From an uncultured virus (IMG/VR IMGVR_UViG_3300025132_000001) (lineage: Duplodnaviria > Heunggongvirae > Uroviricota > Caudoviricetes), in the IMG/VR virus record IMGVR_UViG_3300025132_000001: a stretch of DNA of 24,840 bases; one strand, 5' to 3'. The position numbers and the translations under genes were made by a program. Position 1 is the first letter of the stretch; the number at the start of each line of letters is the position of its first letter. The notes beneath the pieces were generated by a model, which saw nothing but the letters and a program-made list of their open reading frames with translations, was not told the origin of the DNA and made no database searches. Shown in pieces: positions 6,301 through 24,476 of this stretch.

Positions 6301-9300
6301 CGCTTGGAAACAGGCGTTGGAAGAAAAAGGTATTCCATTAGAAGAGCATGCAGAAAAAACTTATAGAGTATTTGTACAAAAAGATTCAGGTACAACTAAT
6401 GAGTCTAAAGTTTTAATTATATATCCTAATAAATTAACTATTGAGTTAATGAGGGAAAAAGAAATATTAGAACGTGTCTTAGAAGAAAACGCTACTAATG
6501 AAACTGCAAAAGAACAGTTAGAAGCTATTGAAAGAAGGTTAGCAGCTATAGGTACTAAACCACAAGTTAGAAGTTTATCTTGGTTAAAAGGTATAAAAAA
6601 TATTAGACGAGTTGATAAAAACATTGTTATTAAAGAAGAATTAGAGCTTATTTTAGAGTCTACAGAAGAGGATCTTCTTAAATCTATAAATGGTCAGCAT
6701 GAAAATATAAAAAAGCTTGAGGACGAGATAAAAGAAATAGCACAACAATTAAGATTATATAGAAAAGCAGAAAGAGAATATAGAAAGTCTCCTAAAACAG
6801 ATAAAGGAAATGTATATATTAAGATCCCAGGTGTAAGAGGTAGAGGTTTTACAGCACAAGGACTAGCTAATAAAATTCAAAGTTTTCAAGATAAGCAATC
6901 GGCTTTAAAACTTGAAGTAGAAGCATTAGATATAAGATTAAAAACACATTCAACACGATTAGCTACATTCTTTCAATTAAAGGAGCAGTTAGGAGAAGAA
7001 ACATCGTATCCTGATTTTGCTAATACAGTACAAGAATATTTTGATGAAAGGTGGAAAGGAGATAAATTAATGTTAGAACAATTAAGAAATACAGAAGCCT
7101 TTATGAATAACCCTATTATTAAAGGTATTTGGAAAGACTTAGATCCACAAAACGATCAGACTGAATTGATTGATGTTCTTACTAATATAGTTGTTACTAA
7201 TAAAGAACCTGTAGGAGAAGAATTAGAAATATTACAAGAAGCTCAAGCTGAATTACATCAAAGGGTAGAAGCTTTACGTGCGGCTGCAGAAAGATTAGGA
7301 AAAGAAATTACATTTAAAAAAGATGGCACATTTAGTTTAAGAGGTAAAGTTAAAGAAGCTACGACACGTGCAGAATATCAAGCTTATCTAGCTGAGATCA
7401 AAGAGCTAGAAGCTGCTATAGAACTTTTAGAATCAAATAAAATAGCTGAAAGTTTTGCAGGAGCAGAAACTGTATTACAAACCAGAGTACAAAGGTGGAA
7501 TAGGCATATTCAACTTAGTAATACAATTGTAGATAATATTACAAGTATTCAACAAATTATAGCAGATCTTACTGGAATAAAACAAGATGTTATAGATTAT
7601 GAATCTAATCCATATTCAGTAGAAGGAGATATGACTCAAGAAGAATTTGAAAATGCTGTTGAGGATGCAAATAAAAAATTAAAACCTGGACAAAGGTCTA
7701 AAGCATATACAAATTCTGTGCCAATTCATATACATGGGTTTAAAAAAACTATTGGAAATCATATACAAGCAATACAAAGACGAAGAGAACTTGTTGAAAA
7801 AGATGTATTAACTCCACAAGAACAAAGAGAGTTGGCAGCTATGGAAGCTCAGTTAAGATTCTTTTATGTTTCTCATATTATGAGGTATAAAAGAAATAAG
7901 AGTGAAATTTTACGTAAAGATGAGCTAGCTTTTGAAGATTATGCCATTGCATTTGTACACAGAGGAATGTTTTCTAAAGAAAATATGGATAAACTTCCAG
8001 ATACATGGAAGTCTGTTATGCAAGCTGAAAATTCTTTTTTATTTTGGGACACTAAAACTAAAAATTATAAAGAAGCAAAAAGTACAGGGTGGTCAAAAAC
8101 ATTAGGAGCCAAGGTTAAAAATGAAAAAGATGAACATATTTTAGCTGTTATAGTAAATAAAAAAACTGGTGCTCCATTATTAGAAGATGGGATGCCTGTT
8201 TATACAGGAGTGATGACAGCTGAATTAACAGAAGAAGTCGTTGATGTAACGGGTAAAAAACAAAACATTACTAGGGGACAAAGAACAGATCTGAAAAAAG
8301 GAGCTAAAAAAGTAATGGTAAAAAGACCAGGAGAAAGAACAGCTAAAGAGGCGTGGGTAGGAACACCTTTACCTGCTGTAAAAGTTTTAGCAGATGAGCA
8401 TGCATCTTTTAGACAAGAAATTTTACAACAAACTGAGCCTTTAGCTGTTGATATTTCAGGTAAATCTCATGGTTTAACTAATTTTGATCAAGGGGTACAA
8501 AGAAAAGTTGCTAGTTCTCTTGTAGCAAATGAAGATTTAGTTAAAGATATTCAATTAGGAGTTTCTACAGATAAAGTACAAAATAAAGTAATTGTTGGTA
8601 AAAGAGAGTATAAAGTAAAAGCGGGCTTTGCATTTATAGATCATAACGATAATATATATAAAGTAAGAGTAGATAAATTAAATGCTTTTTATGTTAAACA
8701 AGTATATAATATGTTACGTTTATATGCTCGTAATTACTTTAATGATAAAATTGTTTTAGAAAATAAAAACAAATTTATGAATGTTAGTGCAGATAATGTT
8801 GCACAAAAAGTTACTGAAAAATCAATTACACAACAAATTAAAGATCTTATTTATTTTGGATCTCATACAAAAACTAGAGAAAAAAGAGCATATAAAATTT
8901 ATTTTGAAAATAATAAATTATACTTTGGTAATAGTGTAATGGATTTAACAGAATTAAATGATCCTGAATCTTTCTCAGAAATTCACACTGCTTTACAAGA
9001 ACATTTAGCTAATATGTATCATCAAATCAATGGTATTAATATATCTAAAGATTATGCAGCTAGAACAACGTATACATCTAAAAATAATCAAAAGCATAAA
9101 GCTTGGAAACAAAAGCTTGATAAGGCTAGTAAGCAAGGAGGATGGACAAATGCAAAAATTACAGCGGCAGTTGGTAAAGAAAAAAGTAAATTATTTGCTT
9201 TAAAAAATAAATGGTTAAAAAAGAATCCAGAGCCCAAAGCAGTATTCCAGCCATATGAGAAGTATACTGAAGTAATGGTAAATGATAATTTAGAAGTTAC

Positions 9301-12300
9301 TCAAAGAGAGTGGTCAAATTATACTGAGTTCTTATTAAGCCAAGGAAAAAGAAATACTCCAACAGCAAGAGAGATAGATGAAATTCCAATTAAATTAGAA
9401 TTATCAGCGCATCCAGGAGCCCTAACAGGATCAAATAAACATCTTAATGCTTCTAAAATAGGAGTCTATTTAAATTTTGGAAAAGCTAAAGCTGTAAGCG
9501 AATTAAAAAGACTTAATAAATTACAAGTTACTTCTCCAAATGTTACACCAGAACAACAAGAAGCAAGTAAATTATTACCTAATAGTGGAATTGAAGTTGG
9601 ACAAACATACGACTACAAAACACCAACGGGACAAAAATTAAGATTTACTTTAAAAGGAATTAATGCAGATTTAAGTTTAGATATTTCAATTAAAAAGGAA
9701 AAAATAGATGGAAAGTTAGTTGAAGTTTATTATGAACCAAATGGTACAATGAAACCAATGGGACCTAAATATAGAAGTTATTTAACTGGACAAGATTCTG
9801 CAGGAGTATGGGTAGGTGAAACTGGAATGTTATGGACTTTAGTAACAGATTCTAAAGGACGAACTGCACAACTAGTTAAAATACCTACAATACTACCTTC
9901 TCCTGAACCAGGTGAAACTAATCAAACGCCAACTAATCCTTTTCCAGGAGGAATGGGCAGTAATAAAGGTGGTAAATCAATGAGTAAAACTACTATTGAA
10001 ATAAGAGATGCTCATGAAACTATGAACTATAAAAAAGAGTATGAAAAGTTTGTAAAAATGGTCCCTAAAGACTCTAAAGGTAATCCTATATTTAAAGTAA
10101 GAAGAGTACGTAATTTACTTAATGGGACTAGTCATGGTTATTGGAGTGGGGTAGCAGATATTTTATTAGATCTAGAAGCACAGACAGGTGCACTTTACCA
10201 TGAGACATGGCATGCAATTGAAGATAGACTTTTAACTCCACAAGAAATAGCAGGAGTTAGAACAGAAGTAAGAAATATAAAAGGTAAAACATCTTTATTT
10301 GGGGCTCCTATTAAAATGGAAGCTCTTACAGATGAACAAATTTCTGAATGGATGGCTGAAGAATTTAGACATTATGTGTTAAATGAAGGTAATTATAAAA
10401 TAGGATCAAATGTACAAAAATCTGTATTACGTAAATTATTTGAATTTATTTTTAAATTTTTAAATAATTTAAATGTTTCACAAGATCTCTTTAAAAAAGT
10501 TCATACTGGTCACTATAATAAGGCTGTTGAAAATTATACTTTATTTGAACCTAAAACAGGTAAAGCAATGTCTAAATCTAGAATTAGTGGGGCAGTTGAA
10601 AAGAAAATAGTTGAAAGTATGTCTGTAGAATTATTTCATATTTTAAATGAACGAGATACATCTATTTCAGAAATTTTAAATATGGAACAATCTGATTTAT
10701 CATTTACTTTATATGAAGCGTATGGTTCAGCTTCAGCTTATGCAGAAAGTGTAGCTAATGGATCGCCTGACTCTAATACGGTATGGGCCCAATTAATGGT
10801 TAGTTTACAAAATGAAGTAACTCAAATAGATGAGTATTTAAAAAATACTAAAAATTTACATCCTGATTTTATAGCAAATGAAGAAGCTAGAAAAATGGGA
10901 TACATACTTACAGCACAAGCTTTAAATAATGATGCATATTGGGATAAACTTAAAAAATGGAATTTAAAAAATCTTCAAGGTCTACAAATTAATGCTAATC
11001 TTGCAGAAGTAATTGATTTAGATCAAATGGAAGGATTAGAAGAAAGCGAAGAAATTTCTAAGGATAAAGTAGCAACTGTTAATCCAAATAAAATTAATCC
11101 TGTTAAACTTTTATCTCCTGAAATAAAAGTATTATTAAAAACATTACCTGTTCAAAACTTTAGTAATAATATTGCAGGTACGTCTGCTTTAGCAGAATAT
11201 GGCGAGGTTATTAGAAATCTATATAAAAACCTATCTAATAAAGATACTTTATTTGATATGTGGTATGCATTAGAACAATTAGCAAGTGAAGATGCTACAT
11301 ATAAAGTTTTAATGCAAAGATTAAAAATAGAAGACTATGCAGCAGGTTTTGATAATTTAGATAACACGGAAATGGCATTAATGGTAGCTTTCTTTACAGG
11401 ATTTAATAAAGCTGCAGATTCATATGTAACACAGTTAGTTAGTAAAACGGGCGGAAGAAACTTTGTAAATTCTAATACTAACTTAATTGAAAACTTAACC
11501 ATGCAAAGATGGAAAGAAGGATTTCAAAATAGTTTATTTAGAAAAAATCTTGGAGCTTTAAATGAAGATGGTGTTTATGTTTTAAATACAGATGCTAAAT
11601 TAACTATTCAAGGTAAAACTAAAAAATTAGGAGAATGGTTTAAGAGTAGAAAAGATAAAGATACAATGCTTATTTTATTAAATGAGTTAGGAATTGTATT
11701 TAGTAATATGGATAATGTAACAGAACTTCTAGACTCTCCAATAGCAGAGAAAGAATTTATGACTGCTGCAAGTAGGATCTTTAGTGAGTTTACTCAATTA
11801 GACAATATAGTAGATATTTTTGAAGATGGTGGTGTTTTTGGTAGAATTAAACAATTAGTTACTATTGAACGTTTAACTACTTTAAAAGCTGTTACTCTAC
11901 AACATCCTAATGTTAATGGTGATCTAGTTTATGGTATTACTAAAAAACATTATATTAATAAATTAGCAGATAAGTTAAATAAAACAGATAGTGAAGTAGA
12001 GAACTTACTTAAATTTGAAAACTTAAAAAATTCTGTATGGTTAAATAGAATTTTAAATGGTGAAAAATTAGAAATTAGAATTCTAGAAGGAGTTAGAAAT
12101 AGAAATGATAAACGAGGACATGATATTTCTAAAACAATAAAAGCTAATATAGCTAATATGCATGTTAACAGTATTTTAGAAGGATACGTACCTTTAATTG
12201 TTACTGGTAATAAAAAGACTAGTAGATCGTTAAGAGTTGGTGAGCCTGGTATAATACCAAGACAAACAATGCTTCAAAGACTTACTGCTTATCTTGTCGA

Positions 12301-15300
12301 TGAAATAATGACTGCTAGAGCTATACAAAATGGAGATAAATCTAAAAGAATAAAAGGATTAACTACTAATGGTAGAGCAGATCTACAATTTTTTAAAGAG
12401 ATTCCTGTTTTAAATTCTTTTGCAAGAAAATATATATCACAAAAAACAGTTGTAACTGAAGAATTATTACAAGACGCACTATTAGATCCTGCTGTCGTTA
12501 AAGCAATGGCATCTATTCTAGATAAAGCAATAGCAGATACTAAAAATGCTTTAGAAAAGTATCATATTATTGATATTGATAATGATGGAATTGTTTTTAA
12601 TAGAGGTATTGATAATTTATTATTAAATAATTTATATAAAGAGTTTAATATAGATAATGCAAGAAAAGGAATAGATCCTGAAAGCGTTGAAGAAGTAACT
12701 AATAAATTAAAGCCAGAATTTTCAGATAGACTATTTATGCAATTAGCTGCATTACAATTAACAGGAATGTTTGAACAATCTAAATTAGTTCTTGGTAATT
12801 TAAATTTATATAATGATCTATTTAAAAGAACTTCTCTAACAGTAGGTACAAAAGATTATCCTTTTGCTGATCAAGGTATTTTAAGTTGGATGGATATAAA
12901 TATGCCTAATCTTATAAACCCAGGTAAAAATCATACAGATATAGTTACGACTGTTACAAGAGCTGAGTTTACTCAAGGTTCTACTTATTTAAATAGTTAT
13001 GTAAAAATATTAGAAGTTTTAGGTAGACAAGATCTTATTCCTGCAGTAGCAGGCGCTTTTTCTAATATGGATATTTTTGATGGTGGTGGATTTATTCAAT
13101 TAGATTTTTATAGACGAGTTTTATTTTTAACTAATAATTGGGGTAATAAACAAGAAGAAGTTTATCAAAAATTATCTAACAATGAAGAACTAACAGCAGA
13201 TGATATTGGCCATTTACCTCCTATAAAACCACAAGTATTTGCAGATCTAAACTTAGACGGCGTAAATTTAAAGAAAGGAGATAAATTTGCACTTTATCCA
13301 GTTCATCCACAATTATCTAAAACACTTTCAACTATTGCAAATAACCAAAGAACTGTAATGGATGATATTTTTGAAGAAATGAATTCTTTTGGTTTAGATT
13401 ATATTACTTTCGAGTCTAGTACAAAAGTAGGGGCAGTACAAAATGAAAGAGGATTTGATCCTATACTAGATAATGAAACTAGAGTGTTTATGCCTTTACA
13501 AGATGAACGAGCATTTGTTACATATAATTTAAATGATTTTGGGATTCAAGTAGATCCTAAATTTAAGTTTTCAAAATCAGTAGCTGCACCAACACAGGGT
13601 ACTTCTTTATTACCTTCTGATATATATAGTAATGGGCAATTAAATCCTAATTATATAGGAAAAGAGTTTAAACCTGATATGACATTTGAGCAAGCTATTA
13701 ATTATTATCATTCTTTAAATACTGAAATTATAAAGAAAGATGTAAATAATTTAGCTAGAAAGTTAGGTTTTATTGAAATAATGACACCACAAGGAAGCAC
13801 ATTTACTTTAATTAACAAAAGAAATAAAAAAGCAGTAGAGCGTTCTATTCTAGAGGAATTACAAAGAAGAGAGCTTCCTATTCATACACAACAAGCTATT
13901 ATGGCAGTTTTCAGATCTCCTGAAACGACGTTAATAAATCAACTTCCTGAAAAAAATAGAATAGAAAATATTTTATACTCTATTGTTAATAACACCGTGA
14001 TCAGAAGAAAGATGACTGGAGAGATGAGTGTAATACAGTCTTCTATGGGATATGAGTTAAGTATACAAAATGAAGGAGGAGTATTTGCTACTATAGACCA
14101 AGTTAAAGAAGAAGGTTTAGATTTAACTCCTTTAAAGTTTTATGCTAAAGATGTTACTCAATTACCTAATGAAACTGATGAAGCTTTCTATGCTAGAGCT
14201 GCAAATAGTAAAACTATGGGCATGGAAGTATATTTACCATATAGTTATAAATCGTTCTTACCAAATCTTGAACCAGGAGCTAAAATTGATCCAGATGTAT
14301 TACAAATATTAGGATATCGTATTCCTACAGAAGGATTAAATTCTATTGAATTTATGATTGTTAAAGATTTTTTACCTCCTCAAAGTGGATCTAGAATTAT
14401 TGTGCCTAATGAAATGGTAGCAAAAGCAGGTGCCGATTTTGATATTGATAAATTAACTTTATTCTTCCCTAATGTAGAATATAATGCTGATACAAATACT
14501 ATTTCTCGTTCTAAAAATATAGAAAGTATTGCAGAGTTAAGAATAAAAGATCCTAATGCTTATATTTCAGCAGCTGTACAACTTTACAAACAATTTGGTA
14601 GTGGGCAAGATTTACTTACTTTTATTAATACATTTAATAGAATTAAAAATGAAGTAAAACTAGAAGAGCAAGAAGCTGAATATGCAGCATTAGATAATGA
14701 ATTGTCTAATCTAGGGTTTTATGAAGGAGCTTTAACACAATTTGAACAGCAGTCTACAGCAGTATTACAAAATAGATTACAAGATTTTATTAGAGATATG
14801 TTATCTCATGAATTAAGTTTTGATCAATTAATTTCTCCTGTAGGTGCTTTTGAAGTTAAGTCTATAGCTGATCAAATACAAGCTAAAAAAATACAGCATG
14901 GAGAAGCTAAAGGAAATATTATTGGTGGACAAAATGGAATTTCATTAATTACTGAAACAGATAATATTTTTGATAAGTTAAGTATTGAAGGAATGGTTGA
15001 AACTTCATATCAAATGTGGTCAACTTTAGGGGGTACAGGAATCGTGGCAAGCTCTATTACAAACTACATTAAAGGACAACGTGCAGGATTAGGTATTAAT
15101 AACTCTTCAGATGCAGTCTTTAATTTTGCAGGATTTGAAAATAATCAAAATGTATCTTTAAGTAATGTTTACGATTTAAATGGTGCAAGGATTAGTAATT
15201 CTATGCGTCAGTATATTACAGCTTATGTGGATGGAGAAAAAGATCCATTTATTATGTTTGTAAACGGAGGTAAAGCATCTGCAGGTGTACATATGTTACT

Positions 15301-17329
15301 ATTAAGAGCTGGAGTACCTTTAAAAACTGTATTATACTTTATGTCTCAACCTATTATCTCAGAATATTTAGAGTTAGTTAATCTACAAAAAGGAGAGCAT
15401 ACTAAAATGTATGGATCTAAAAAAGATTTATATAGAGAAAGTAAAATAAGAGAAACTTTATTAAAATCATATGTAGCAGAACCATTACTTACTCCTGTTA
15501 AATTTTCTACAAACCAGACAGATGACACAGGATTATTAGAAACTATGGTTTATAAAACTAAACTTTCTGGTAAATCTAATTCAATGACAGAAGTAGAACG
15601 TGCTATGCAAAAGCAAATTTTTGAAGATTTTCTACGTTATAAAGATATTGCTGAAGATCTAAGAAAATTACAAGTTATTACATCTTTTGATACAGCTAAA
15701 TTTAAAAATGGAAATGAAGTTATTCAGATGACTGCATTACAAAATATGGTAGCTCAAAAAAATAGATTTTTAAATTGGGAAAGAATGATTGCTGGAACTT
15801 TATTACAACCATTATCTGAAACTGTTTCAAATTTTGGACCTGGTATTATGAGTAATTTCGATTTAAAGTATGCAAAATCAGAAACTAATCAATTACCATT
15901 TATAATGAAAATGGTTCAAATGGCTACAGATGAGTTAAATACTGGTACAACTTCAGAAGCAGTACAATATTTATTAGAACAATTTGATAATCATATTTCT
16001 GCACATGTATTACATCAAACAGCTTCTGCTAATAAAGGATGGACCAATCACATGGGAGATAGATTAAGATCTTTATTTGTGGGAGAAAATAGTTTAGCTA
16101 AACGAATTAGAGATATACAAACAAGTAATAACGATTTAAGATTAAATGGTTTTATATCTTCTTTGCGTCCTGTTATTTCTCCACATCAAAATTCAAGTTC
16201 ATATGAATATACTATTGATAAATTAACTTTAAGAGATAAACAATTAACGACAGAAGATTTAGATGTTTTAGCAAATGAATTTCAAGAAATACAAGCATCT
16301 GATCCAAATCTTGCACAAGATATTATACTGTATTCATTATTAAAATCAGGTATAGCTTATAGTCCTACATCTTTCTTTGAAGCGATCCCAGGAATAGAAG
16401 TTAATAAAATAACTAAAGATATTTTTAGAAACGTACTTGAATATATTAAAATTGATAGATTTAATGAACAAGTAGAAGTTATATATCAAAACTTTTTAGA
16501 TAATAAATGGAATGATAGAAAAATAACAAATTCTTTATGGCACTCTACAGTTCCAAAATGGAATGAAAATAAATCTTTTGAAAGTCTTGAAAATTATGGT
16601 CCTAGAGTAGTTATTATGAAACCTTATAAATCTTCTCAAAAAGGATTAATTGTTAAAGATAAAATTTTACATTTCTTTTATAAGAGAAATGATTTAAAAG
16701 AAAGAATAGAAGAAAATACAACAGAAGGTATTACTTCTACATATTTTACATATGAGCTTCAGCCTGCTAAAGGAATTAGAAATGAATTAATTGAGACTCA
16801 AGAAGGGCCTTCAATTCATAATGCTAATAATGAAAGTAGACCTACAGTAGATCTGTTAGTAACTCCTTCTACAGTGCAAAATGTAGCTAAAGGATCTCAA
16901 GTATTATTGGCTAGACCATTAAATGCTAAACGATTAACTTCAGGTAGATATATGTTATGGTCTGAAAATTCTAAAAATAAAATATTAGTTAGACTTGAAG
17001 AGGTTGGAGGTTTTAATATTAAAAGTTTGAAAAAGAATAAAAATTTCACTAAATTTGGCATAAAAGAAGAGGGGGATATTTATAATGTTTTAGCTAAAAA
17101 ATTAGGGTACACTACTGCACTAGAAATGAAAAAATCTAAAGCAATGGGTAATTTCTCAAAAAATTATATGAAAGTATTTTATGAAATAACGCCTGTAGTT
17201 CAAACAAGTAATACGCAAATAGGTGAAAAAGTAACTTCACCATTAGATACTCAACAAGCTTTAGGATTAAGTGAAAAAGAAAAAGAAGTAATGAAAGAGA
17301 ATATAAATAATCTAAATAACCAATGTTAA
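3368..17329 (+). CDS. Giant crAss-like virion RNA polymerase polyprotein (4653 aa): cargo/membrane region, zincin protease and single-chain two-barrel RNAP
   Basis: Uninterrupted 14-kb ORF. Catalytic loop AGADFDIDK (DFDID at 14435-14449, aa 3690) matches the DFDID motif known from phi14:2 gp66-type polymerases. GYRIPTEG (R at 14318) corresponds to the beta-prime R-x-P-T motif. DGGGFI (13079), PIKPQ, ESSTKVG and YVDGEKDP (15224) resemble conserved motifs of RNAi-RdRP-related two-barrel polymerases. HETWH lies at 10199-10213. Confidence 0.93.
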   Translation: MAKRKKYQSEGVLDYDAWNQEFNEEFAGQTAPDAEISTVPQPFKETNFNLLDAVITTSENREETFNQAINQNSNWSPLHGATFNVPDYESYQKYIDRPFSFISDDPDDMRARNQSFGEKALYGTTKLLTRTGTNILGSTVGLFYGGASYIDTLVTGGPDASPWKSFWDNDFQRSLDGINDWMDNQLPHYYTKEEQQYNFFRSMGTANFWFNDFTQGASFVMGAVLSEALMRGLGNSAAVSKANELFRKSFSKGKYEKVGITQQERMNSFMKNVVRPRQLSNAAVRLRQLGTGAMYEAGVESRHNYDRTLEHLVQMHKDDNNGQQPNVQDMADYVDIATKTANSVWAGNVALVGYGNYMMFPKIFGKGYNGTKANLRNKIKTQNTILPRGKTRTYKNIRDDYGKFEGMMRNISRILKVPLYEGFVEEGGQKVLDLAGHHAAETFYLAKADPTYKLAVGELMNSMDDVWAKAYGSTEGQKEIGIGFLLALMGVPGYSNTANKGKGGWTWVGGAMQREAEFKKEQEQVEKLVALVKKHPHLWDATEANFNALVRAEVLKDIQDAGLVVNSSFQFKNSENNEMLNLILKKIQAGLDFTLYEDIDYIRNMRVDKFRETFGWMDLADLTDDQIKTKRNETADLFANKIEEVKEMYNIASTTFTNFGADQLFSVVEAMAVPKDSDTRMAAMNKEARELMGGNIELEVETENVSDLNKNEQQGLLDRLSNIWNRLTGKQKDNINKSPEGKRTKRKLGINEFTKASHVEELFVTITEDVAALDRKIKEVESDTTLTEKQREKELKKLELEKEALHQRTAELSKGIKEGLDPDLSSQEQEILDKWKKQDPAGYEQNSEKVINLLKDMRLLRARAHRATDMLNYLKAEHNVALRENSTWSKVGKHLPRPEILRQRMIGYQTDLSKNITDTELKKIYDRYAGSFIEFDYTRSSKVVIGDYKKHAAENNLLDSVTALALDKINTGKMSEQDAWKQALEEKGIPLEEHAEKTYRVFVQKDSGTTNESKVLIIYPNKLTIELMREKEILERVLEENATNETAKEQLEAIERRLAAIGTKPQVRSLSWLKGIKNIRRVDKNIVIKEELELILESTEEDLLKSINGQHENIKKLEDEIKEIAQQLRLYRKAEREYRKSPKTDKGNVYIKIPGVRGRGFTAQGLANKIQSFQDKQSALKLEVEALDIRLKTHSTRLATFFQLKEQLGEETSYPDFANTVQEYFDERWKGDKLMLEQLRNTEAFMNNPIIKGIWKDLDPQNDQTELIDVLTNIVVTNKEPVGEELEILQEAQAELHQRVEALRAAAERLGKEITFKKDGTFSLRGKVKEATTRAEYQAYLAEIKELEAAIELLESNKIAESFAGAETVLQTRVQRWNRHIQLSNTIVDNITSIQQIIADLTGIKQDVIDYESNPYSVEGDMTQEEFENAVEDANKKLKPGQRSKAYTNSVPIHIHGFKKTIGNHIQAIQRRRELVEKDVLTPQEQRELAAMEAQLRFFYVSHIMRYKRNKSEILRKDELAFEDYAIAFVHRGMFSKENMDKLPDTWKSVMQAENSFLFWDTKTKNYKEAKSTGWSKTLGAKVKNEKDEHILAVIVNKKTGAPLLEDGMPVYTGVMTAELTEEVVDVTGKKQNITRGQRTDLKKGAKKVMVKRPGERTAKEAWVGTPLPAVKVLADEHASFRQEILQQTEPLAVDISGKSHGLTNFDQGVQRKVASSLVANEDLVKDIQLGVSTDKVQNKVIVGKREYKVKAGFAFIDHNDNIYKVRVDKLNAFYVKQVYNMLRLYARNYFNDKIVLENKNKFMNVSADNVAQKVTEKSITQQIKDLIYFGSHTKTREKRAYKIYFENNKLYFGNSVMDLTELNDPESFSEIHTALQEHLANMYHQINGINISKDYAARTTYTSKNNQKHKAWKQKLDKASKQGGWTNAKITAAVGKEKSKLFALKNKWLKKNPEPKAVFQPYEKYTEVMVNDNLEVTQREWSNYTEFLLSQGKRNTPTAREIDEIPIKLELSAHPGALTGSNKHLNASKIGVYLNFGKAKAVSELKRLNKLQVTSPNVTPEQQEASKLLPNSGIEVGQTYDYKTPTGQKLRFTLKGINADLSLDISIKKEKIDGKLVEVYYEPNGTMKPMGPKYRSYLTGQDSAGVWVGETGMLWTLVTDSKGRTAQLVKIPTILPSPEPGETNQTPTNPFPGGMGSNKGGKSMSKTTIEIRDAHETMNYKKEYEKFVKMVPKDSKGNPIFKVRRVRNLLNGTSHGYWSGVADILLDLEAQTGALYHETWHAIEDRLLTPQEIAGVRTEVRNIKGKTSLFGAPIKMEALTDEQISEWMAEEFRHYVLNEGNYKIGSNVQKSVLRKLFEFIFKFLNNLNVSQDLFKKVHTGHYNKAVENYTLFEPKTGKAMSKSRISGAVEKKIVESMSVELFHILNERDTSISEILNMEQSDLSFTLYEAYGSASAYAESVANGSPDSNTVWAQLMVSLQNEVTQIDEYLKNTKNLHPDFIANEEARKMGYILTAQALNNDAYWDKLKKWNLKNLQGLQINANLAEVIDLDQMEGLEESEEISKDKVATVNPNKINPVKLLSPEIKVLLKTLPVQNFSNNIAGTSALAEYGEVIRNLYKNLSNKDTLFDMWYALEQLASEDATYKVLMQRLKIEDYAAGFDNLDNTEMALMVAFFTGFNKAADSYVTQLVSKTGGRNFVNSNTNLIENLTMQRWKEGFQNSLFRKNLGALNEDGVYVLNTDAKLTIQGKTKKLGEWFKSRKDKDTMLILLNELGIVFSNMDNVTELLDSPIAEKEFMTAASRIFSEFTQLDNIVDIFEDGGVFGRIKQLVTIERLTTLKAVTLQHPNVNGDLVYGITKKHYINKLADKLNKTDSEVENLLKFENLKNSVWLNRILNGEKLEIRILEGVRNRNDKRGHDISKTIKANIANMHVNSILEGYVPLIVTGNKKTSRSLRVGEPGIIPRQTMLQRLTAYLVDEIMTARAIQNGDKSKRIKGLTTNGRADLQFFKEIPVLNSFARKYISQKTVVTEELLQDALLDPAVVKAMASILDKAIADTKNALEKYHIIDIDNDGIVFNRGIDNLLLNNLYKEFNIDNARKGIDPESVEEVTNKLKPEFSDRLFMQLAALQLTGMFEQSKLVLGNLNLYNDLFKRTSLTVGTKDYPFADQGILSWMDINMPNLINPGKNHTDIVTTVTRAEFTQGSTYLNSYVKILEVLGRQDLIPAVAGAFSNMDIFDGGGFIQLDFYRRVLFLTNNWGNKQEEVYQKLSNNEELTADDIGHLPPIKPQVFADLNLDGVNLKKGDKFALYPVHPQLSKTLSTIANNQRTVMDDIFEEMNSFGLDYITFESSTKVGAVQNERGFDPILDNETRVFMPLQDERAFVTYNLNDFGIQVDPKFKFSKSVAAPTQGTSLLPSDIYSNGQLNPNYIGKEFKPDMTFEQAINYYHSLNTEIIKKDVNNLARKLGFIEIMTPQGSTFTLINKRNKKAVERSILEELQRRELPIHTQQAIMAVFRSPETTLINQLPEKNRIENILYSIVNNTVIRRKMTGEMSVIQSSMGYELSIQNEGGVFATIDQVKEEGLDLTPLKFYAKDVTQLPNETDEAFYARAANSKTMGMEVYLPYSYKSFLPNLEPGAKIDPDVLQILGYRIPTEGLNSIEFMIVKDFLPPQSGSRIIVPNEMVAKAGADFDIDKLTLFFPNVEYNADTNTISRSKNIESIAELRIKDPNAYISAAVQLYKQFGSGQDLLTFINTFNRIKNEVKLEEQEAEYAALDNELSNLGFYEGALTQFEQQSTAVLQNRLQDFIRDMLSHELSFDQLISPVGAFEVKSIADQIQAKKIQHGEAKGNIIGGQNGISLITETDNIFDKLSIEGMVETSYQMWSTLGGTGIVASSITNYIKGQRAGLGINNSSDAVFNFAGFENNQNVSLSNVYDLNGARISNSMRQYITAYVDGEKDPFIMFVNGGKASAGVHMLLLRAGVPLKTVLYFMSQPIISEYLELVNLQKGEHTKMYGSKKDLYRESKIRETLLKSYVAEPLLTPVKFSTNQTDDTGLLETMVYKTKLSGKSNSMTEVERAMQKQIFEDFLRYKDIAEDLRKLQVITSFDTAKFKNGNEVIQMTALQNMVAQKNRFLNWERMIAGTLLQPLSETVSNFGPGIMSNFDLKYAKSETNQLPFIMKMVQMATDELNTGTTSEAVQYLLEQFDNHISAHVLHQTASANKGWTNHMGDRLRSLFVGENSLAKRIRDIQTSNNDLRLNGFISSLRPVISPHQNSSSYEYTIDKLTLRDKQLTTEDLDVLANEFQEIQASDPNLAQDIILYSLLKSGIAYSPTSFFEAIPGIEVNKITKDIFRNVLEYIKIDRFNEQVEVIYQNFLDNKWNDRKITNSLWHSTVPKWNENKSFESLENYGPRVVIMKPYKSSQKGLIVKDKILHFFYKRNDLKERIEENTTEGITSTYFTYELQPAKGIRNELIETQEGPSIHNANNESRPTVDLLVTPSTVQNVAKGSQVLLARPLNAKRLTSGRYMLWSENSKNKILVRLEEVGGFNIKSLKKNKNFTKFGIKEEGDIYNVLAKKLGYTTALEMKKSKAMGNFSKNYMKVFYEITPVVQTSNTQIGEKVTSPLDTQQALGLSEKEKEVMKENINNLNNQC
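9989..10558 (+). other. Zincin-like metallopeptidase domain within the vRNAP polyprotein
   Basis: ALYHETWHAI is an HExxH motif (aa 2278-2282). EWMAEEF at 10346-10366 supplies a candidate third ligand, followed by the amphipathic helix VLRKLFEFIFKFL. A Pro/Gly-rich linker (about 9884-9973) precedes it. Boundaries are approximate. Confidence 0.8.
12760..15370 (+). other. Catalytic core of the two-barrel RNA polymerase (beta-like and beta-prime-like DPBB regions in one chain)
   Basis: Motifs occur in order: DLFKR, DGGGFI, PIKPQ, DKFALYP, ESSTKVG, GYRIPTEGLNS, GADFDIDKL, YVDGEKDP. Boundaries are approximate. Confidence 0.85.
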
Positions 17330-17330
17330 T

Positions 17331-20300
17331 ATGGCTTGTAGAGTTATAAAAAATGATCAAGGAAGAGTAATTGAAGTGTATCAAGAAAATGGTACACCTT
17401 CAGTTCTATTTACTCAAATATCTGAAGTATTACCTGATGCTGATCTTGCTTATGCAACTTATCATAGAGCAATGATAGACTCTCAAAGCAATATTGAACC
17501 TACATTTGAAAGTGTATTACCTTATGTACAAGCAGCTAGAAACAATTCAATCGAATACAAAAAAGTTCTTTTAGAAGCAGATGTTCAAAATAAAGAAACT
17601 GCTTTAATAGAAAATCTAGACAATTTTTTAAGAAGTATCAATGTTAATGTATCAATTGTTAATAATCTTGTAGATACAACTACAGATAAACCTATATCTA
17701 TAGCTGCTAGAGCTCGTTTAGGGCAGAAATTAATTGAAATTGCTCAAGATCGTGCTACTTTAAAAGATTTTGCAGAAGAAGGTGCTCACTTTTTAGTTGA
17801 AATATTAAGAGAAACTCAAGCCCCTTTATACACTGGTATGGAACAGTTAGTTACTTCTTATCAGATCTATAAAGATATGATGAAGGAAGATAATTTTTAT
17901 TATCAAAAATATAAAGGAGATCAAGATTTAATAAAAAGAGAAGCTATGGCTAAAATAATAGCTTTAAATTTACTAAATAAAAATTTAGACTCTCAACATG
18001 TCGACACTTCTTTTCAAGAAAGTCCTGAAAAATTATCTAGATTAGAAAGATGGGGAAAAAGATTAGTAGCTTGGATTAAAAAGTTATGGGGATCTGTTTC
18101 AGGAAATGCTTTTGTACAAAGTTCTCAACTTATACTAAATAATTCTTTAGATGAATATTTAGCAGCACAAGGATTATTATCTGCAAAAGAAACTGCAGGA
18201 AATGTAGTATTACCTAATTTAGAAATGCCTTCTGTAGGCCAGCCTAATACTGATACAAAAACAAAAGACATTGTCACACGACTAGATAAATACGATGTTT
18301 ATGAATTAAAAGATGATATTCCTGTTGGAGAAAAGAAATATTGGAAACTTTTAACTGATCAGTCTGATTTATATATTCAAAGATATGTACATAAAGATGA
18401 CGCTTCAAAAATTTTAGAGGTAAGGATGACTGATGCTGCGCAACTGCTCTATCTACAAAAACAAAAAGGTAGAAAATTACCTTATCAAAGTAAAGAAGAA
18501 AAAAAATTCTGGGAAGAGGTAATGGCTAAAAGAGCTGCAACAGGTACTGCAGGTCACAATACATTAGAGGCATTATTACGTTATCACACAAAAGATAAAA
18601 ATATTAAAAGTGATGAAACCACTTTACTTCAAATACAACAAAAGTATGGGTTTAACGATGTTCATTTTAGATTATTAAATGCAAATTTAAAAGCTTTATT
18701 AAAACATACTGCTAATATACAAAAACAAATTGATCCTGAACAATCTCCTATTTATAGACCTGAACAATTTGTTATTAATAAAACAGAAGACGCAGGGGGT
18801 ACAATTGACTTGTTAGTAATTTATAGTAATGGTACTGCTTCTATTTATGATTATAAGTTTTCTACTCCTAGTAAAATGCATTTACACTGGCGTAATAAAC
18901 AACGTGTATTAAAAAGTGATCCGTGGGCAGATAAAACAGAGCAGTACGATGTTCAAATTTCAGGATATAAACAAGCATTATTAGATAAATATGGTATTAC
19001 TGATGTTATTGAATCTAGAATTATTCCTGTGGCTGTATATTATGAAGTCGTAAAAGGTAAACCTACTTCTAGAGTCGTTTCAATGAAGATGGGGGGACAT
19101 TTTTTAAGCGAATTATATACTGCAGAAGAAAAGAAAATATTAAAAGAAGATCCAGACGCAGGCTTTTTAGAACCTATTCCTGTAGCAGGAGAAAAAACAG
19201 GTATAGAAAGTATCGATAGGTTAATTACAAAAGAAAGAGATAGATTAGCAATTTTAATAAAAGAAAAAGGAGATGCTAATTTTCAAAAGAAACAAGTATT
19301 AACTAAAAGAATAGGATTTTCAAGAAACATTTTAAAAAGATTAGCATTAAAAAAGAATGTGGATAGTGCAATTATAGAAGCGTTTAGGGTTCGTAAAAGA
19401 GCTGAAGAGGGATTAGCTTCTAATAATCAAAATGAGAAAAATGAAGATGGAAGTGTTAATACAAAATACATGAAAGATGATGAGCTACAACAAGTTTATT
19501 TAGATCTAAAACATTTTGAAGGGTTTTTAAAACTACAAGATTTAATGGATCATTATGGAAAAATTCAAAAATCTGAGGAAGATGCAGGTAGAAAAAATGA
19601 AGAGTTGTGGAAAGAAATGGAAAAAGAAAAAGAGAATATTAAAAAATTACTTTCTGATGTAGGAGTGTTACAACTTACTTTAGAAGCAATTGAAAACAAA
19701 ATAGTAGAAAGAGCTCAAGATTATGTAAAAAAATTAGGAATGGATCCTCAATCTATAACTAATTATAACACGTCTATAACAGGTATAGGTAAATTAATGA
19801 TACCTTTATCTGCACAAACTAATCCTTACATGCGTGCTATTTATTTAACTAAAAGAGATATTAATTCTAAGATCACACAAGTTACAAAAGAATTAGCTGC
19901 AGAAATAGAAGATATTCAAAATGCTGTAATAGAAGAGTTTGGCCATACAGGAGTTCAAATTTATGATAAACTTATTAATCCTTATACAATGAATTTTTAT
20001 TCTAGATGGGATGAAAGTTGGAGAGAACAAAAAGAACAGGCTTTAGAGACAGGTAATGTTTCTTGGATAAAAGAACATTTTGAAATAAATCCTGCTTTTT
20101 TTGAAAAGAAAGGAAAATTTAATTTCCATACTATGAAAGCTGATATGGAAAAGATTGTTAGAGAGACTATGCAATCAAATCAAGACGGCAGTTTTACACA
20201 AAACCAAAAGAAAGAACTTGAAAGGTTATTGTCTAGATGGGATGTAAAAAGTTTTGATGCTGCTTGGTTAAATCCTAAAAACTTAACTGGTAGATTTGGA

Positions 20301-22487
20301 TTAAAATTAAAAGCAGGAGTAAAACAAAAATTTAAATCTAAAGAACAAATAGAAATTGAAAAGAGCCCTGCTTTATCTAGATTTAGAGAGTTTCATGAAA
20401 AAATGGCTTGGAAATTTGCCAATATGATGGGTATAGATGTACATGCAGGATATATCGCTGACGTACAAAAAGATCTATTTGCTTCAATGATGGAAGATGG
20501 ATTTAATATTAATCAAATTACACAGGCTGTTACTGATCTATTTCAAGTACGTCAACATGAACAAGGATTTGGATTTCTCGACGAAAATGGAGAGTTTATG
20601 AGACAAATTCCTAGGTTACATACAGTACAACTCTTTAACAAAGATGGTTCACCAGACAATTCTTTAAAATCAAAAGAATTAGGAAAAAGTTTATATCTTT
20701 TAGGTAAAGCTGCTTATCAGTATAAGTATAATATGGAAGTTCTTCCACAGTTAAGTCTATTAAAAAGAATGCTTACTGATAAATTTCCTGCAGCGCAAGA
20801 GCTTCAAACAGATGTATTTGGTAAATTAGTGATAGACTCTACAGGAGAAGTTAGAAAAAAAGTTCAAAGTGCCAATGCGGAAACTATTACAGATGTTATT
20901 GATCAAGAAATTTATGGTAGAAGTTTAAAAACACAAGATGTGGTAACTCCAGGGCGAGTCAGTAGAAATAAAACTATCCTTTCTTTAAAATCTTATCACA
21001 GTTTAACAACATTAGGATTAAGTGTACCTGTTGCATTAGGTGCTTTTGGAGCAGGTATGGTAAACACATTTACACAATCTTCTAAAGGAATACATTATAC
21101 TACTAAACAATTATTATCTGCACAAAAATCTTTATTGTCTATGGATCCTAAAATTCAAGCAATATTTGAATTTTTTGAACTTAGTTTAATTGATGAAATT
21201 CATAGACGTGGGGACATGTTATCTACTAATTTTAGAACTAAGTATATGCAAACAGATAGATTCTTTGAGTTTTTAGCGCGAGCAGATAAAACTATTGACG
21301 CAGTACTTGCTGTAGCAATGGCTAAAAATCACGGGATACATCCTGAAACAGGAGAGTTAAAACGTATTAAAGAGTTACCTGAAGGTACAAAATCTATTTA
21401 TGAGTCTATAGATGCAGTTCAAGATCCTAAATGGAAAATGGGCTCTGTAAGAAATAAATATCAAGTTAATTTAAAAGGATTTCAAAAAGAAAAAGCTAAA
21501 GAAAATATAACTCAAAAAGAATTAGAAGCTTTACAAGAAAAAAATAATCGAGCATTAAATGCTTGGGGAACTTTCCAGGCTAGAGTACAAAGAATTTCTA
21601 GTAAAGTAAAAGGTACAATGAATGTTAATGATAAAGCATTATTTAATCAACATTTAATAGGTAGATTAATGATGCATTATAGAACTTGGTTACCTGCTTT
21701 AGCGCATGAAAGATTTGCATCTTTACGTTATGATCATGTAATGGATCATTATGATGAGGGTACATGGAGAAGTTTATTTAGAAATGTTGGTAAAGATAAG
21801 ACTTTTGATTCTATTAAACAAGCTATAGACACAGAAGTTTCTTATTTATCTTTAGCTACAGAAATAGGAAAAGACATATTAAAAATTGGAGTAGATGTAG
21901 GAACATTTGGATTAGCTAAATGGGATTTAAAAGAAGGGAAAGCTAAATTACAATTTGAAGAGTTTTTAAATCAACATATTGGAGATCCTCAATATATGAA
22001 AGGTAATAGACTTTTAAATGAGTCTGATCCTGAATATACAGCAGAATTTGAAAAATTTATTGAATTAAAACGTGCAAATCTTAGAGCAGGGCTAGCTGAA
22101 TTACGTGCAGTATTATTGTTAATGTTAACTTTAATGGGCCTTGGAGGAGATTGGGACGAAGATGGTGATATAGATATAAGAGAAAGTTGGTCAGGTAGAA
22201 AGCTTCATAATATTATGAATAGAGTATATAGAGAAACTGCATTTTTCTTAGATCTAAGAGAACTTACGGGTCCTAGAGCGTCTGGGTTACCATTAATTAG
22301 TTTAGGTAGTCAACTGATTCAATTTAGTAGTAATTCTGTAGATGAGTTACTTGATGCTGTTACAGGTAGAGACGATAAAGATGATAAGTATAATGGTGGA
22401 TATTATGGGTTTAAATTTATTCCTGGTAATAAATTAATTAGACCACTTGAACCTTTTGCAGCAGATAAACATAGTAGAACTGATTAA
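17331..22487 (+). CDS. Large virion cargo protein (1718 aa) with a degenerate zincin-like domain, a PD-(D/E)xK nuclease domain and a C-terminal hydrophobic helix
   Basis: Starts 1 nt after the vRNAP stop (TAA-T-ATG). Degenerate zincin: EEGAH (17775-17789) with downstream REAMAKII. Nuclease motifs: GTAGH (18543), E, GGTIDLL (D at 18807), IYDYK (K at 18855) and QISGY (18954). Hydrophobic segments at about 21003-21062 and about 22107-22148 (AVLLLMLTLMGLGG). Confidence 0.85.
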   Translation: MACRVIKNDQGRVIEVYQENGTPSVLFTQISEVLPDADLAYATYHRAMIDSQSNIEPTFESVLPYVQAARNNSIEYKKVLLEADVQNKETALIENLDNFLRSINVNVSIVNNLVDTTTDKPISIAARARLGQKLIEIAQDRATLKDFAEEGAHFLVEILRETQAPLYTGMEQLVTSYQIYKDMMKEDNFYYQKYKGDQDLIKREAMAKIIALNLLNKNLDSQHVDTSFQESPEKLSRLERWGKRLVAWIKKLWGSVSGNAFVQSSQLILNNSLDEYLAAQGLLSAKETAGNVVLPNLEMPSVGQPNTDTKTKDIVTRLDKYDVYELKDDIPVGEKKYWKLLTDQSDLYIQRYVHKDDASKILEVRMTDAAQLLYLQKQKGRKLPYQSKEEKKFWEEVMAKRAATGTAGHNTLEALLRYHTKDKNIKSDETTLLQIQQKYGFNDVHFRLLNANLKALLKHTANIQKQIDPEQSPIYRPEQFVINKTEDAGGTIDLLVIYSNGTASIYDYKFSTPSKMHLHWRNKQRVLKSDPWADKTEQYDVQISGYKQALLDKYGITDVIESRIIPVAVYYEVVKGKPTSRVVSMKMGGHFLSELYTAEEKKILKEDPDAGFLEPIPVAGEKTGIESIDRLITKERDRLAILIKEKGDANFQKKQVLTKRIGFSRNILKRLALKKNVDSAIIEAFRVRKRAEEGLASNNQNEKNEDGSVNTKYMKDDELQQVYLDLKHFEGFLKLQDLMDHYGKIQKSEEDAGRKNEELWKEMEKEKENIKKLLSDVGVLQLTLEAIENKIVERAQDYVKKLGMDPQSITNYNTSITGIGKLMIPLSAQTNPYMRAIYLTKRDINSKITQVTKELAAEIEDIQNAVIEEFGHTGVQIYDKLINPYTMNFYSRWDESWREQKEQALETGNVSWIKEHFEINPAFFEKKGKFNFHTMKADMEKIVRETMQSNQDGSFTQNQKKELERLLSRWDVKSFDAAWLNPKNLTGRFGLKLKAGVKQKFKSKEQIEIEKSPALSRFREFHEKMAWKFANMMGIDVHAGYIADVQKDLFASMMEDGFNINQITQAVTDLFQVRQHEQGFGFLDENGEFMRQIPRLHTVQLFNKDGSPDNSLKSKELGKSLYLLGKAAYQYKYNMEVLPQLSLLKRMLTDKFPAAQELQTDVFGKLVIDSTGEVRKKVQSANAETITDVIDQEIYGRSLKTQDVVTPGRVSRNKTILSLKSYHSLTTLGLSVPVALGAFGAGMVNTFTQSSKGIHYTTKQLLSAQKSLLSMDPKIQAIFEFFELSLIDEIHRRGDMLSTNFRTKYMQTDRFFEFLARADKTIDAVLAVAMAKNHGIHPETGELKRIKELPEGTKSIYESIDAVQDPKWKMGSVRNKYQVNLKGFQKEKAKENITQKELEALQEKNNRALNAWGTFQARVQRISSKVKGTMNVNDKALFNQHLIGRLMMHYRTWLPALAHERFASLRYDHVMDHYDEGTWRSLFRNVGKDKTFDSIKQAIDTEVSYLSLATEIGKDILKIGVDVGTFGLAKWDLKEGKAKLQFEEFLNQHIGDPQYMKGNRLLNESDPEYTAEFEKFIELKRANLRAGLAELRAVLLLMLTLMGLGGDWDEDGDIDIRESWSGRKLHNIMNRVYRETAFFLDLRELTGPRASGLPLISLGSQLIQFSSNSVDELLDAVTGRDDKDDKYNGGYYGFKFIPGNKLIRPLEPFAADKHSRTD
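18540..19040 (+). other. PD-(D/E)xK (RecB/Cas4-like) nuclease domain within the 1718-aa protein
   Basis: The canonical order GTxxH ... E ... GxxD ... DYK ... QxxxY is present and intact. No Fe-S cluster cysteines. Confidence 0.85.
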
Positions 22488-24462: not shown

Positions 24463-24476
24463 AATTATTGTATTTA

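What the first reader, a model, noticed from the sequence alone, without database searches (positions are those of the whole stretch)
17324..17339. The only two cysteines in about 7,500 aa of cargo protein sit at facing termini, suggesting a disulfide link between cargo proteins
Seen: scanning by eye, the four + strand products (265+852+4653+1718 aa) contain only two Cys. One is the last residue of the vRNAP polyprotein (...NNQC-stop) and the other is residue 3 of the next protein (MAC...). They are encoded 13 nt apart across TAA-T-ATG. The small - strand proteins each contain Cys, so the depletion is specific to the cargo block. Established: the N4 virion RNAP is Cys-free, which has been linked to its passage through the periplasm. 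Inference: the two retained terminal Cys may form an inter-chain disulfide, or a shared metal site, linking the vRNAP tail to the head of the nuclease-bearing cargo. That could set packaging stoichiometry or ejection order, with release in the reducing cytoplasm.
Basis: partly seen in the sequence, partly recalled or inferred. Interest (0 to 1): 0.85.

Follow-up and report, generated by a model that had tools for sequence, protein, structure and literature searches.

The report
Terminal cysteine clasp between crAss cargo proteins
Two giant proteins that this crAss-like phage most likely packs and injects (its RNA polymerase and a nuclease-bearing partner) have no cysteine except one at each of the two ends that face each other, a rule kept by all relatives sampled and dropped where the genes are fused, which points to an untested end-to-end disulfide tie.

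Summary
The four + strand products (7,491 aa) hold two Cys: the last residue of the 4,653-aa polymerase polyprotein and residue 3 of the next 1,718-aa protein.

It is not chance.
- All 12 related loci that show this junction keep both Cys.
- 136 of the 150 best-scoring representatives of the downstream family have a Cys within their first 8 residues, at 0.06% Cys overall.
- The C-terminal Cys is the only invariant column in the last 250 residues of the upstream family.
- Where the big gene is split, a new Cys pair sits at the break (5 of 5 loci).
- Where all three modules are fused, two of four giants have no Cys in 5,200 and 5,862 aa; the other two have one internal Cys, away from the module joins.
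- Outer ends never carry Cys (0 of 11, 0 of 13).

phi14:2, crAss001, DAC15, cr108_1, crAss002 and cr1_1 follow the same rule.

A disulfide of this geometry has been seen by cryo-EM in cyanopodophage A4 (gp27 Cys1715 to gp26 Cys5, PMC12002296). Here the bond is inferred, not shown.

This scan had already noted the pattern on at least 16 other genomes.

Verdict: real, and a new variant of a known kind.

The parts
3368..17329 (+). Gene C: a 4,653-aa polyprotein with a gp47/gp67-like N-terminal module fused to a gp50/gp66-like virion RNA polymerase module. Its sole Cys is its last residue.
   Evidence: blastp: residues 135-869 to crAss001 gp47 (E 7e-18) and residues 3205-4380 to crAss001 gp50 (E 2e-30) and phi14:2 gp66 (E 3e-23). 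PHROG 32390.
14435..14449 (+). DFDID, a DFDxD polymerase motif, at residues 3690-3694 of C.
   Evidence: The same motif is found in phi14:2 gp66 (1361) and crAss001 gp50 (1483). Its role as catalytic site is taken from the abstract of bioRxiv 10.1101/2020.03.07.982082 (listing).
17324..17326 (+). TGT codon for Cys4653, the C-terminal residue of C.
   Evidence: It is the only invariant column in the last 250 residues of 9 family members at about 20% identity. In a low-confidence AF2 model it lies at the tip of a flexible tail after a terminal helix.
17327..17330 (+). TAA stop of C plus one spacer base before the ATG of D.
17331..22487 (+). Gene D: a 1,718-aa gp49-like cargo protein. Its sole Cys is residue 3.
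   Evidence: blastp to crAss001 gp49, E 5e-8. 17 homologues besides the window's own protein all have Cys at residue 3-5.
17337..17339 (+). TGT codon for Cys3 of D.
   Evidence: Invariant in alignments A1 and A2. 136 of 150 family representatives have a Cys in the first 8 residues. In the AF2 model residues 1-3 have pLDDT under 50 and precede a beta hairpin.
18498..18998 (+). PD-(D/E)XK-type nuclease-like domain of D (residues 390-556).
   Evidence: PHROG 298 'exonuclease', E 2.9e-10. Invariant D493, D507 and K509. Foldseek gives only weak hits to MGME1, RecE and AdnAB, with E above 0.01.
2..3357 (+). Two upstream Cys-free ORFs (265 aa, 5' open; 852/855 aa). They are putative further cargo or ejection proteins and are not part of the Cys pair.
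   Evidence: 0 Cys in 1,120 aa. No family match. Assignment as cargo rests on position only, by analogy with crAss001 gp45/gp46; it is an inference.

Best explanation
C (polymerase polyprotein) and D (nuclease-bearing gp49-like protein) are virion cargo that is purged of cysteine. The one Cys kept at the C-terminal tip of C and the one at the N-terminal tip of D form an inter-chain disulfide in the mature particle. This ties the two chains head to tail, so that they behave as one linear polyprotein for packaging and for threading through the tail. The bond is then broken in the reducing host cytoplasm, which frees the two proteins. Shown: the pattern, its conservation, its covariation with gene fission and fusion, and a solved disulfide of the same geometry in phage A4. 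Inferred: that C and D are packaged, that the bond forms here, and what it is for.
For: Count and position.

The D family keeps an N-terminal Cys:
- All 18 proteins of the first search, the window's own included.
- 136 of 150 of the best representatives, out of 2,005 hits; 116 of those 150 have it as their only Cys; 164 Cys in 269,720 aa overall.

The C family keeps a C-terminal Cys:
- Both proteins found.
- 12 of 12 loci.
- It is the only invariant column of alignment A3.

Fission: in 5 of 5 loci where C is split into P1 and P2, P1 ends in Cys, and P2 starts with M-x(1-3)-C and ends in Cys, with no internal Cys. P1 and P2 are collinear with C.

Fusion:
- P0090 (5,862 aa) and P0141 (5,200 aa) hold all three modules and have 0 Cys.
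- P0066 and P0079 (polymerase module plus D module) keep only the N-terminal Cys.

Controls:
- 6 of 6 cargo junctions carry both Cys, against 2 of 254 other same-strand neighbour pairs in four genomes with 1.46% Cys.
- Outer ends carry none: 0 of 11 first-module N-ends and 0 of 13 last-module C-ends.

The pattern does not depend on gene adjacency. In crAss001 and DAC15 the gp47-like gene lies on the other strand, yet the ends still match. G002 has a 74-aa ORF between P1 and P2.

Precedents:
- In A4, gp27 Cys1715 to gp26 Cys5 is a disulfide in the virion (passages); each is the sole Cys of its protein.
- crAss001 virions hold many inter-subunit disulfides (passages).
Against: No bond has been observed in any crassvirus.

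Several gut crassviruses carry some internal Cys as well:
- crAss001 gp50 Cys1334.
- DAC15, 3+1 internal.
- cr108_1, 7 internal.
- crAss002 gp33, 6 internal.
- cr1_1, 2 internal.
So the purge is not absolute.

14 of 150 representatives lack the N-terminal Cys. Seven of these are fused or long forms and several look truncated. P0050, P0139, P0092, P0078 and P0110 could not be explained without their context.

Two fully fused forms keep one internal Cys (P0060, P0124).

Two terminal Cys have no evident partner: the G004 1,157-aa protein and the Lbo-JY46 674-aa protein.

The bacterial cytoplasm is reducing, so the bond would have to form inside the capsid or after lysis.

C and D show no sequence similarity to A4 gp27 and gp26, so that precedent is an analogy.
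Confidence: 0.65

Rival explanations
1. The two thiols are joined by something other than a disulfide: a shared metal ion (thiolate-metal-thiolate, perhaps across two copies of each chain) or another covalent chemistry. The tie is still end to end.
For: The same covariation data fit any pairwise Cys-Cys link.
Against: No conserved His, Asp or second Cys lies near either end; the Cys is the only invariant column and the flanks vary. The one solved case is a disulfide.
Confidence: 0.1
2. The terminal Cys do not pair with each other. Each binds another partner (a capsid-interior, portal or inner-body protein) or forms homodimers (C-C tail to tail, D-D head to head).
For: Two terminal Cys without an evident partner exist in relatives (G004 1,157-aa protein, Lbo-JY46 674-aa protein). 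In three-protein phages the pairing topology cannot be read from sequence.
Against: A new gene break always brings a C-terminal and an N-terminal Cys together (5 of 5 loci), and a fusion removes both; homodimers or a third partner do not predict this. N- and C-type terminal Cys are balanced in the window, G001-G003, phi14:2, crAss001, DAC15 and A-4L. Outer ends carry none.
Confidence: 0.1
3. The terminal Cys have no function. Selection against Cys is simply weaker at flexible chain ends, or the TGT/TGC codons are part of a nucleotide signal at the gene junction.
For: Both Cys lie in low-confidence, probably flexible tips. In the window the two codons lie 13 nt apart.
Against: Near-invariance at about 20-35% protein identity. 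No Cys at the outer ends, which are equally terminal (0 of 11 and 0 of 13). Absent at fused junctions. Present when the genes are on opposite strands or separated by another ORF. The position varies: residue 2-8 at N-ends, 0-8 from the end at C-ends.
Confidence: 0.04

Closest known systems
Cyanopodophage A4 (Anabaena phage A-4L) pre-ejectosome pair gp27-gp26, with the disulfide Cys1715-Cys5 (PNAS 2025, PMC12002296; passages read)
   Same: Two large ejection proteins are encoded by adjacent genes in the same order. The upstream one has its sole Cys 2 residues from its C-terminus and the downstream one has its sole Cys at residue 5. The bond is seen by cryo-EM in the virion, where a C-terminal helix of gp27 docks into gp26. 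A low-confidence model of the tail of C also ends in a helix.
   Different: A different phage family (Saffermanviridae) with a 42-kb genome and no virion polymerase module found. No sequence similarity to C or D (blastp E above 0.1, profile E above 0.1). No A4 chain appears among the listed Foldseek hits for D 1-600. That paper does not describe the rule of fission and fusion covariation.
Crassvirales polymerase cargo block: phi14:2 gp67-gp66-gp65 and crAss001 gp47-gp50-gp49
   Same: Homologous modules in the same order. The terminal-Cys pattern is the same: gp67 ends in Cys, gp66 has Cys3 and Cys2179 of 2,180, and gp65 has Cys3; gp47 has Cys2339 of 2,341, gp50 has Cys5 and Cys2404 of 2,412, and gp49 has Cys5. 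Both papers report the proteins in virions (passages).
   Different: In the window the first two modules are fused into one 4,653-aa protein, so there is one Cys pair, not two. D carries a PD-(D/E)XK-like domain. The texts I searched do not mention these Cys: 0 hits for cysteine or disulfide in the phi14:2 preprint, and in the crAss001 paper disulfides are described only for tail and portal-vertex proteins. The Nature version of the phi14:2 paper was not held.
Schitoviridae ejection proteins (N4 gp50, DEV gp71-gp73)
   Same: A giant virion RNA polymerase that is injected and purged of Cys (0.00075% against 0.865% in the proteome; passages of PMC11445570). N4 vRNAP is described as beads on a string that ease ejection (passages of PMC13434306). 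That is what a disulfide-tied chain would imitate.
   Different: There it is one continuous chain with no terminal Cys pair reported. The N4 polymerase is described as T7-like and mitochondrial-like, whereas C carries the DFDxD motif of the gp66 type.
Inter-chain disulfides of A-B toxins and of some animal-virus capsids that are reduced on entry (recalled, from no call)
   Same: A bond that is stable outside the cell and is broken by the reducing cytoplasm to free the delivered part.
   Different: Unrelated proteins and a different delivery route. This is an analogy for the mechanism only.

Membership tests
Crassvirales virion polymerase cargo block (gp67/gp47 - gp66/gp50 - gp65/gp49) | A giant protein with the DFDxD polymerase motif and similarity to phi14:2 gp66 / crAss001 gp50 | tested here: met
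   DFDID at residue 3690 of C; blastp E 2e-30 (gp50) and 3e-23 (gp66).
Crassvirales virion polymerase cargo block (gp67/gp47 - gp66/gp50 - gp65/gp49) | A gp47/gp67-like module upstream and a gp49/gp65-like protein downstream, in that order | tested here: met
   C 135-869 to gp47, E 7e-18; C 102-487 to gp67, E 8e-7; D to gp49, E 5e-8. No blastp hit of D to phi14:2 gp65 at E up to 1e-3.
Crassvirales virion polymerase cargo block (gp67/gp47 - gp66/gp50 - gp65/gp49) | The proteins are present in the virion | not testable with these tools
   Reported for phi14:2 and crAss001 by mass spectrometry (passages). Inferred here by homology.
Disulfide-clasped ejection-protein pair (A4 gp27-gp26 type) | The upstream protein has its sole Cys within a few residues of the C-terminus, and the next protein has its sole Cys within the first residues | tested here: met
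   Cys4653 of 4,653 and Cys3. A-4L: Cys1715 of 1,717 and Cys5.
Disulfide-clasped ejection-protein pair (A4 gp27-gp26 type) | The two Cys are joined by a disulfide in the mature particle | not testable with these tools
   Needs non-reducing gels, MS or cryo-EM. Co-folding was unavailable.
Disulfide-clasped ejection-protein pair (A4 gp27-gp26 type) | Homology to gp27 and gp26 | tested here: not met
   blastp E above 0.1 and profile A1 E above 0.1. No such chain among the listed Foldseek matches (model pLDDT 67.5, so the fold test is weak). I therefore file it as working like the A4 pair, not as a member by descent.
Cys-suppressed phage ejection proteins (as in Schitoviridae) | Cys frequency far below that of the phage's other proteins | tested here: met
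   2 in 7,491 aa against 11 in 750 aa on the - strand. Relatives have 1.46% in non-cargo genes.

The most novel reading that the evidence does not exclude
Crassviruses, and some unrelated podophages, rebuild an injectable polyprotein after translation. Every break between the giant cargo genes is bridged by a C-terminal-Cys to N-terminal-Cys disulfide, so the polymerase modules leave the capsid as one linear thread in a fixed order. The host's reducing cytoplasm then cuts the thread and switches the polymerase on. The purge of all other Cys exists to keep that thread unbranched. Gene fission and fusion in this block are then neutral, because the disulfide substitutes for the peptide bond.
Probability: 0.4. 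Interest if true: 0.8.

Novelty: new variant of a known kind. Interest (0 to 1): 0.68.

Why it matters
How crassviruses pack, order and inject about 700 kDa of polymerase-related cargo, and how the virion polymerase is switched on, are stated as open questions in the papers I read (passages). A redox-cleavable head-to-tail tie gives a concrete hypothesis. It can be tested with cultured phages (phi14:2, crAss001, DAC15) and possibly by re-searching existing non-reduced virion MS data; the crAss001 study ran reduced and untreated samples (section 15). It would also explain why these genes can be split or fused freely across the order, and why the proteins are purged of Cys. The covariation rule can also help annotation: it flagged a probably mis-called start in crAss002 gp33.

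Tried and rejected
Searches and tools that gave nothing useful:
- tblastn of the first 800 aa of D against 50,697 phage records found no match.
- A single-protein locus search in IMG/VR found none; the profile-based search then worked.
- No whole genome is held for the window.
- The D profile found nothing convincing among PDB sequences (best E 0.049).
- Foldseek of the D 1-600 model found no match at E up to 1e-3, only weak PD-(D/E)XK nuclease hits.
- The p-crAssphage accession I recalled is not in the collection.
- The Nature version of the phi14:2 paper is not held.

The tree is the quick version only. The split forms make one clade (support 98), so within the window's close relatives as few as one fission or fusion event may explain the states. 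The independent events come from the wider family.

Readings considered and rejected:
- An N-terminal-nucleophile hydrolase Cys: the Cys position varies from residue 2 to 8.
- A lipoprotein lipobox: I saw no signal-peptide-like N-terminus in the sequences; this was not formally scanned.
- CaaX-type prenylation of the C-terminal Cys: a eukaryotic process (recalled), and the Cys lies 0-8 residues from the end.

Literature searches for a prior description in crassviruses found none in the listed titles and abstracts or in the passages I read:
- 'virion RNA polymerase' + cysteine + crAss, 2 papers.
- 'ejection proteins' + disulfide + bacteriophage + cysteine, 2 papers.
- 'cargo proteins' / crAss001 / cysteine.
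- Crassvirales + disulfide, 4 papers.
- crassvirus + cysteine, 5 papers.
- ejectosome + disulfide, 13 papers.
Subscription journals and supplements were not searched.

Full report
**Observation.**
The window holds four + strand ORFs (2-799; 790/799-3357; 3368-17329; 17331-22487) followed by small - strand ORFs. An exact count gives 0, 0, 1 and 1 Cys in 265, 855, 4,653 and 1,718 aa. The two Cys are the last residue of the 4,653-aa protein (here C) and residue 3 of the 1,718-aa protein (here D). The DNA reads TGT TAA T ATG GCT TGT at 17324-17339. The - strand ORFs hold 11 Cys in 750 aa. TGT/TGC are common in the other two frames of the four ORFs (82 and 395 occurrences) but occur twice in frame.

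**What the proteins are.**
- C matches crAss001 gp47 and phi14:2 gp67 in its first ~870 residues.
- C matches crAss001 gp50 and phi14:2 gp66 (the virion RNA polymerase) in residues 3205-4380, with a DFDID motif at residue 3690.
- D matches crAss001 gp49.
- D also has a PD-(D/E)XK-like stretch: PHROG 298, residues 390-556; invariant D493, D507 and K509; weak Foldseek hits to MGME1, RecE and AdnAB.

The window therefore holds the crassvirus polymerase cargo block with its first two modules fused. Among 50,697 deposited phages, the only BLAST match to the tail of C is cr108_1 at 24% identity, so the phage is a distant member of the group.

**Conservation of the N-terminal Cys.**
- The first protein search returned 18 proteins, the window's own included, reaching below 25% identity. 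All have Cys at residue 3-5, and 16 of the 18 have no other Cys.
- A profile of the first 600 residues found 2,005 proteins among 1.84 billion representatives.
- Of the 150 best, 136 have a Cys within the first 8 residues and 116 have it as their only Cys. Together the 150 hold 164 Cys in 269,720 aa.
- The Cys sits at residue 3 in 78 of the 136, residue 4 in 32, residue 5 in 20, and elsewhere in 6.

**Conservation of the C-terminal Cys.**
- Both proteins found with the tail of C have a sole Cys, at the last or the fourth-last residue.
- Of 14 IMG/VR loci with a D homologue, 12 include the start of D. In 12 of 12 the upstream ORF has a Cys within its last 3 residues. The other two loci are cut.
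- In an alignment of the last 250 residues from 9 members at about 20% identity, that Cys is the only invariant column.

**Covariation with gene structure.**
- In 5 loci (L002, L003, L005, L007, L009) C is split into P1 (2,044-2,090 aa where complete) and P2 (2,272-2,472 aa). In 5 of 5, P1 ends in Cys, P2 begins M-x(1-3)-C and ends in Cys, and none of them has an internal Cys.
- P1 and P2 are collinear with the window's C, and the break falls in a poorly conserved linker near residues 2,100-2,300.
- In the wider family, P0090 (5,862 aa) and P0141 (5,200 aa) contain all three modules in one chain and have no Cys at all.
- P0066 and P0079 fuse the polymerase module to the D module and keep only the N-terminal Cys.
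- P0124 and P0060 are fully fused and have one internal Cys each, away from the module joins.
- A quick tree of D proteins puts the split forms in one clade (support 98). Among the close relatives the number of events may therefore be as low as one.

**Controls.**
- In four complete relatives, 6 of 6 cargo junctions carry both Cys. Only 2 of 254 other same-strand neighbour pairs do, in proteomes with 1.46% Cys.
- The outer ends of the chain carry none: 0 of 11 N-ends of the first module and 0 of 13 C-ends of the last. This speaks against mere tolerance of Cys at chain ends.
- The rule does not need gene adjacency. In crAss001 and DAC15 the gp47-like gene is on the opposite strand to the other two. 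It still ends in a sole Cys, while the gp50-like protein has Cys at both tips and the gp49-like protein has one at residue 4-5.
- G002 has a 74-aa ORF between P1 and P2.

**Named phages.**
All 8 of 8 examined carry the pair or pairs:

| Phage | Upstream end | Downstream end |
|---|---|---|
| phi14:2 | gp67 ends in Cys; gp66 Cys2179 of 2,180 | gp66 Cys3; gp65 Cys3 (no other Cys in any of the three) |
| crAss001 | gp47 Cys2339 of 2,341; gp50 Cys2404 of 2,412 | gp50 Cys5; gp49 Cys5 |
| DAC15 | as crAss001 | as crAss001 |
| cr108_1 | ...NLCK | MANVC |
| crAss002 | ...SFVCS | M-S-C, if gp33 starts at Met33 |
| cr1_1 | ...IHCIKS | MSIIC |
| Lbo-JY46 (cyanophage) | sole Cys is the last residue of a 1,552-aa protein | sole Cys is residue 4 of the next protein |
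| A-4L | gp27 Cys1715 of 1,717 | gp26 Cys5 |

The gut phages also carry some internal Cys (1 to 7), so the purge is less strict there.

**Precedent and literature.**
I read its passages: gp27 Cys1715 and gp26 Cys5 form a disulfide in the pre-ejectosome, where the C-terminal helix of gp27 docks into gp26 (PMC12002296).
- In the A-4L record these are the sole Cys of the two proteins.
- C and D are not detectably related to them.
- crAss001 virions contain many inter-subunit disulfides in the tail and at the portal vertex, so such bonds do form in crassvirus particles (PMC10172136, passages).
- Cys suppression in injected proteins is described for Schitoviridae (PMC11445570, passages).
- I found no description of terminal Cys in crassvirus cargo. 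The phi14:2 preprint has no hit for cysteine or disulfide, and the 2026 N4 paper has none either. Six full-text searches gave nothing on it in what I saw. The Nature version of the phi14:2 paper and all supplements were not seen.

**Structure.**
- An AF2 model of D 1-600 (mean pLDDT 67.5) has residues 1-3 below pLDDT 50, just before a beta hairpin.
- A model of the last 250 residues of C (mean pLDDT 57.9) has a folded domain, a disordered linker, a terminal helix and a low-confidence tip.
- Both Cys thus sit on probably flexible tips. That suits a tether, but these models are weak evidence.
- Co-folding was not available.

**Reading.**
The best explanation (0.65) is an inter-chain disulfide that joins the tail of C to the head of D in the virion. 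It would restore the continuity that fused relatives have in one chain, and it would be opened in the host cytoplasm.

The roles are inferred:
- co-packaging at 1:1;
- a fixed order of exit as one linear thread, in line with the N-to-C ejection proposed for crAss001 gp45 and the 'beads on a string' view of N4 vRNAP;
- release or activation by reduction.

The rivals are a metal bridge, other partners or homodimers, and absence of function. The fission and fusion data and the outer-end control count against the last two.

**Novelty.**
The kind of link is known from one solved phage, A4. Three things are not in the literature I could search: its presence in this polymerase cargo, its spread across Crassvirales, and its covariation with gene breaks. 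This scan has noted the same pattern on at least 16 other genomes. I reached the reading before that look-up and tested it on this window's own relatives.

Noticed in passing
L044 (cr108_1) 15123-15412: The polymerase ORF is interrupted by about 290 nt exactly inside the DFDxD motif: the upstream ORF ends ...AKAGSD and the next begins with ...YDIDK. This looks like an intron or other insertion, so the two annotated 'hypothetical proteins' (2,967 and 798 aa) are probably one protein.
   Followed up: no
G002:C1:14963-15187 (- strand; within L035): A 74-aa ORF with two hydrophobic stretches and 2 Cys is inserted between the P1 and P2 genes of this relative only. The sister loci L003 and L009 have gaps of about 20 nt there.
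   Followed up: no
G001:C1:32174-40279 and G002:C1:39777-51689; also G001:C1:31664-32164: Relatives encode giant Cys-rich proteins (2,701 aa with 179 Cys; 3,970 aa with 210 Cys). Next to them lies a conserved ~166-aa protein with 12 Cys that ends ...CGCNC. These are probably disulfide-rich outer virion or fibre proteins, the opposite extreme to the cargo block.
   Followed up: no
L046 (crAss002) 5270-5374: The annotated start of gp33 lies 32 codons upstream of an in-frame M-S-C followed by a motif typical of this family's N-termini (C-x-P-x-N-P). The true start is probably Met33.
   Followed up: partly
G004:C1:39132-42605 (- strand) and L045 (Lbo-JY46) 626-2650: Two further Cys-poor upstream proteins carry a sole terminal Cys with no evident partner: a 1,157-aa protein that ends ...KKC, and a 674-aa protein that begins MKKKC.
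   Followed up: no
window 17775-17801 (D residues 149-157): E149, E150, H153 and E157 are invariant in the D family and may form a metal site. The phi14:2 preprint says gp65 orthologues hold a zincin-like protease domain (passage).
   Followed up: no
window 23632-24498 (- strand): A 288-aa ORF matches PHROG 107 'exonuclease' (E 6e-48) and, below the cut-off, the Pfam 5'-3' exonuclease SAM fold. It marks the start of the replication module on the opposite strand.
   Followed up: no
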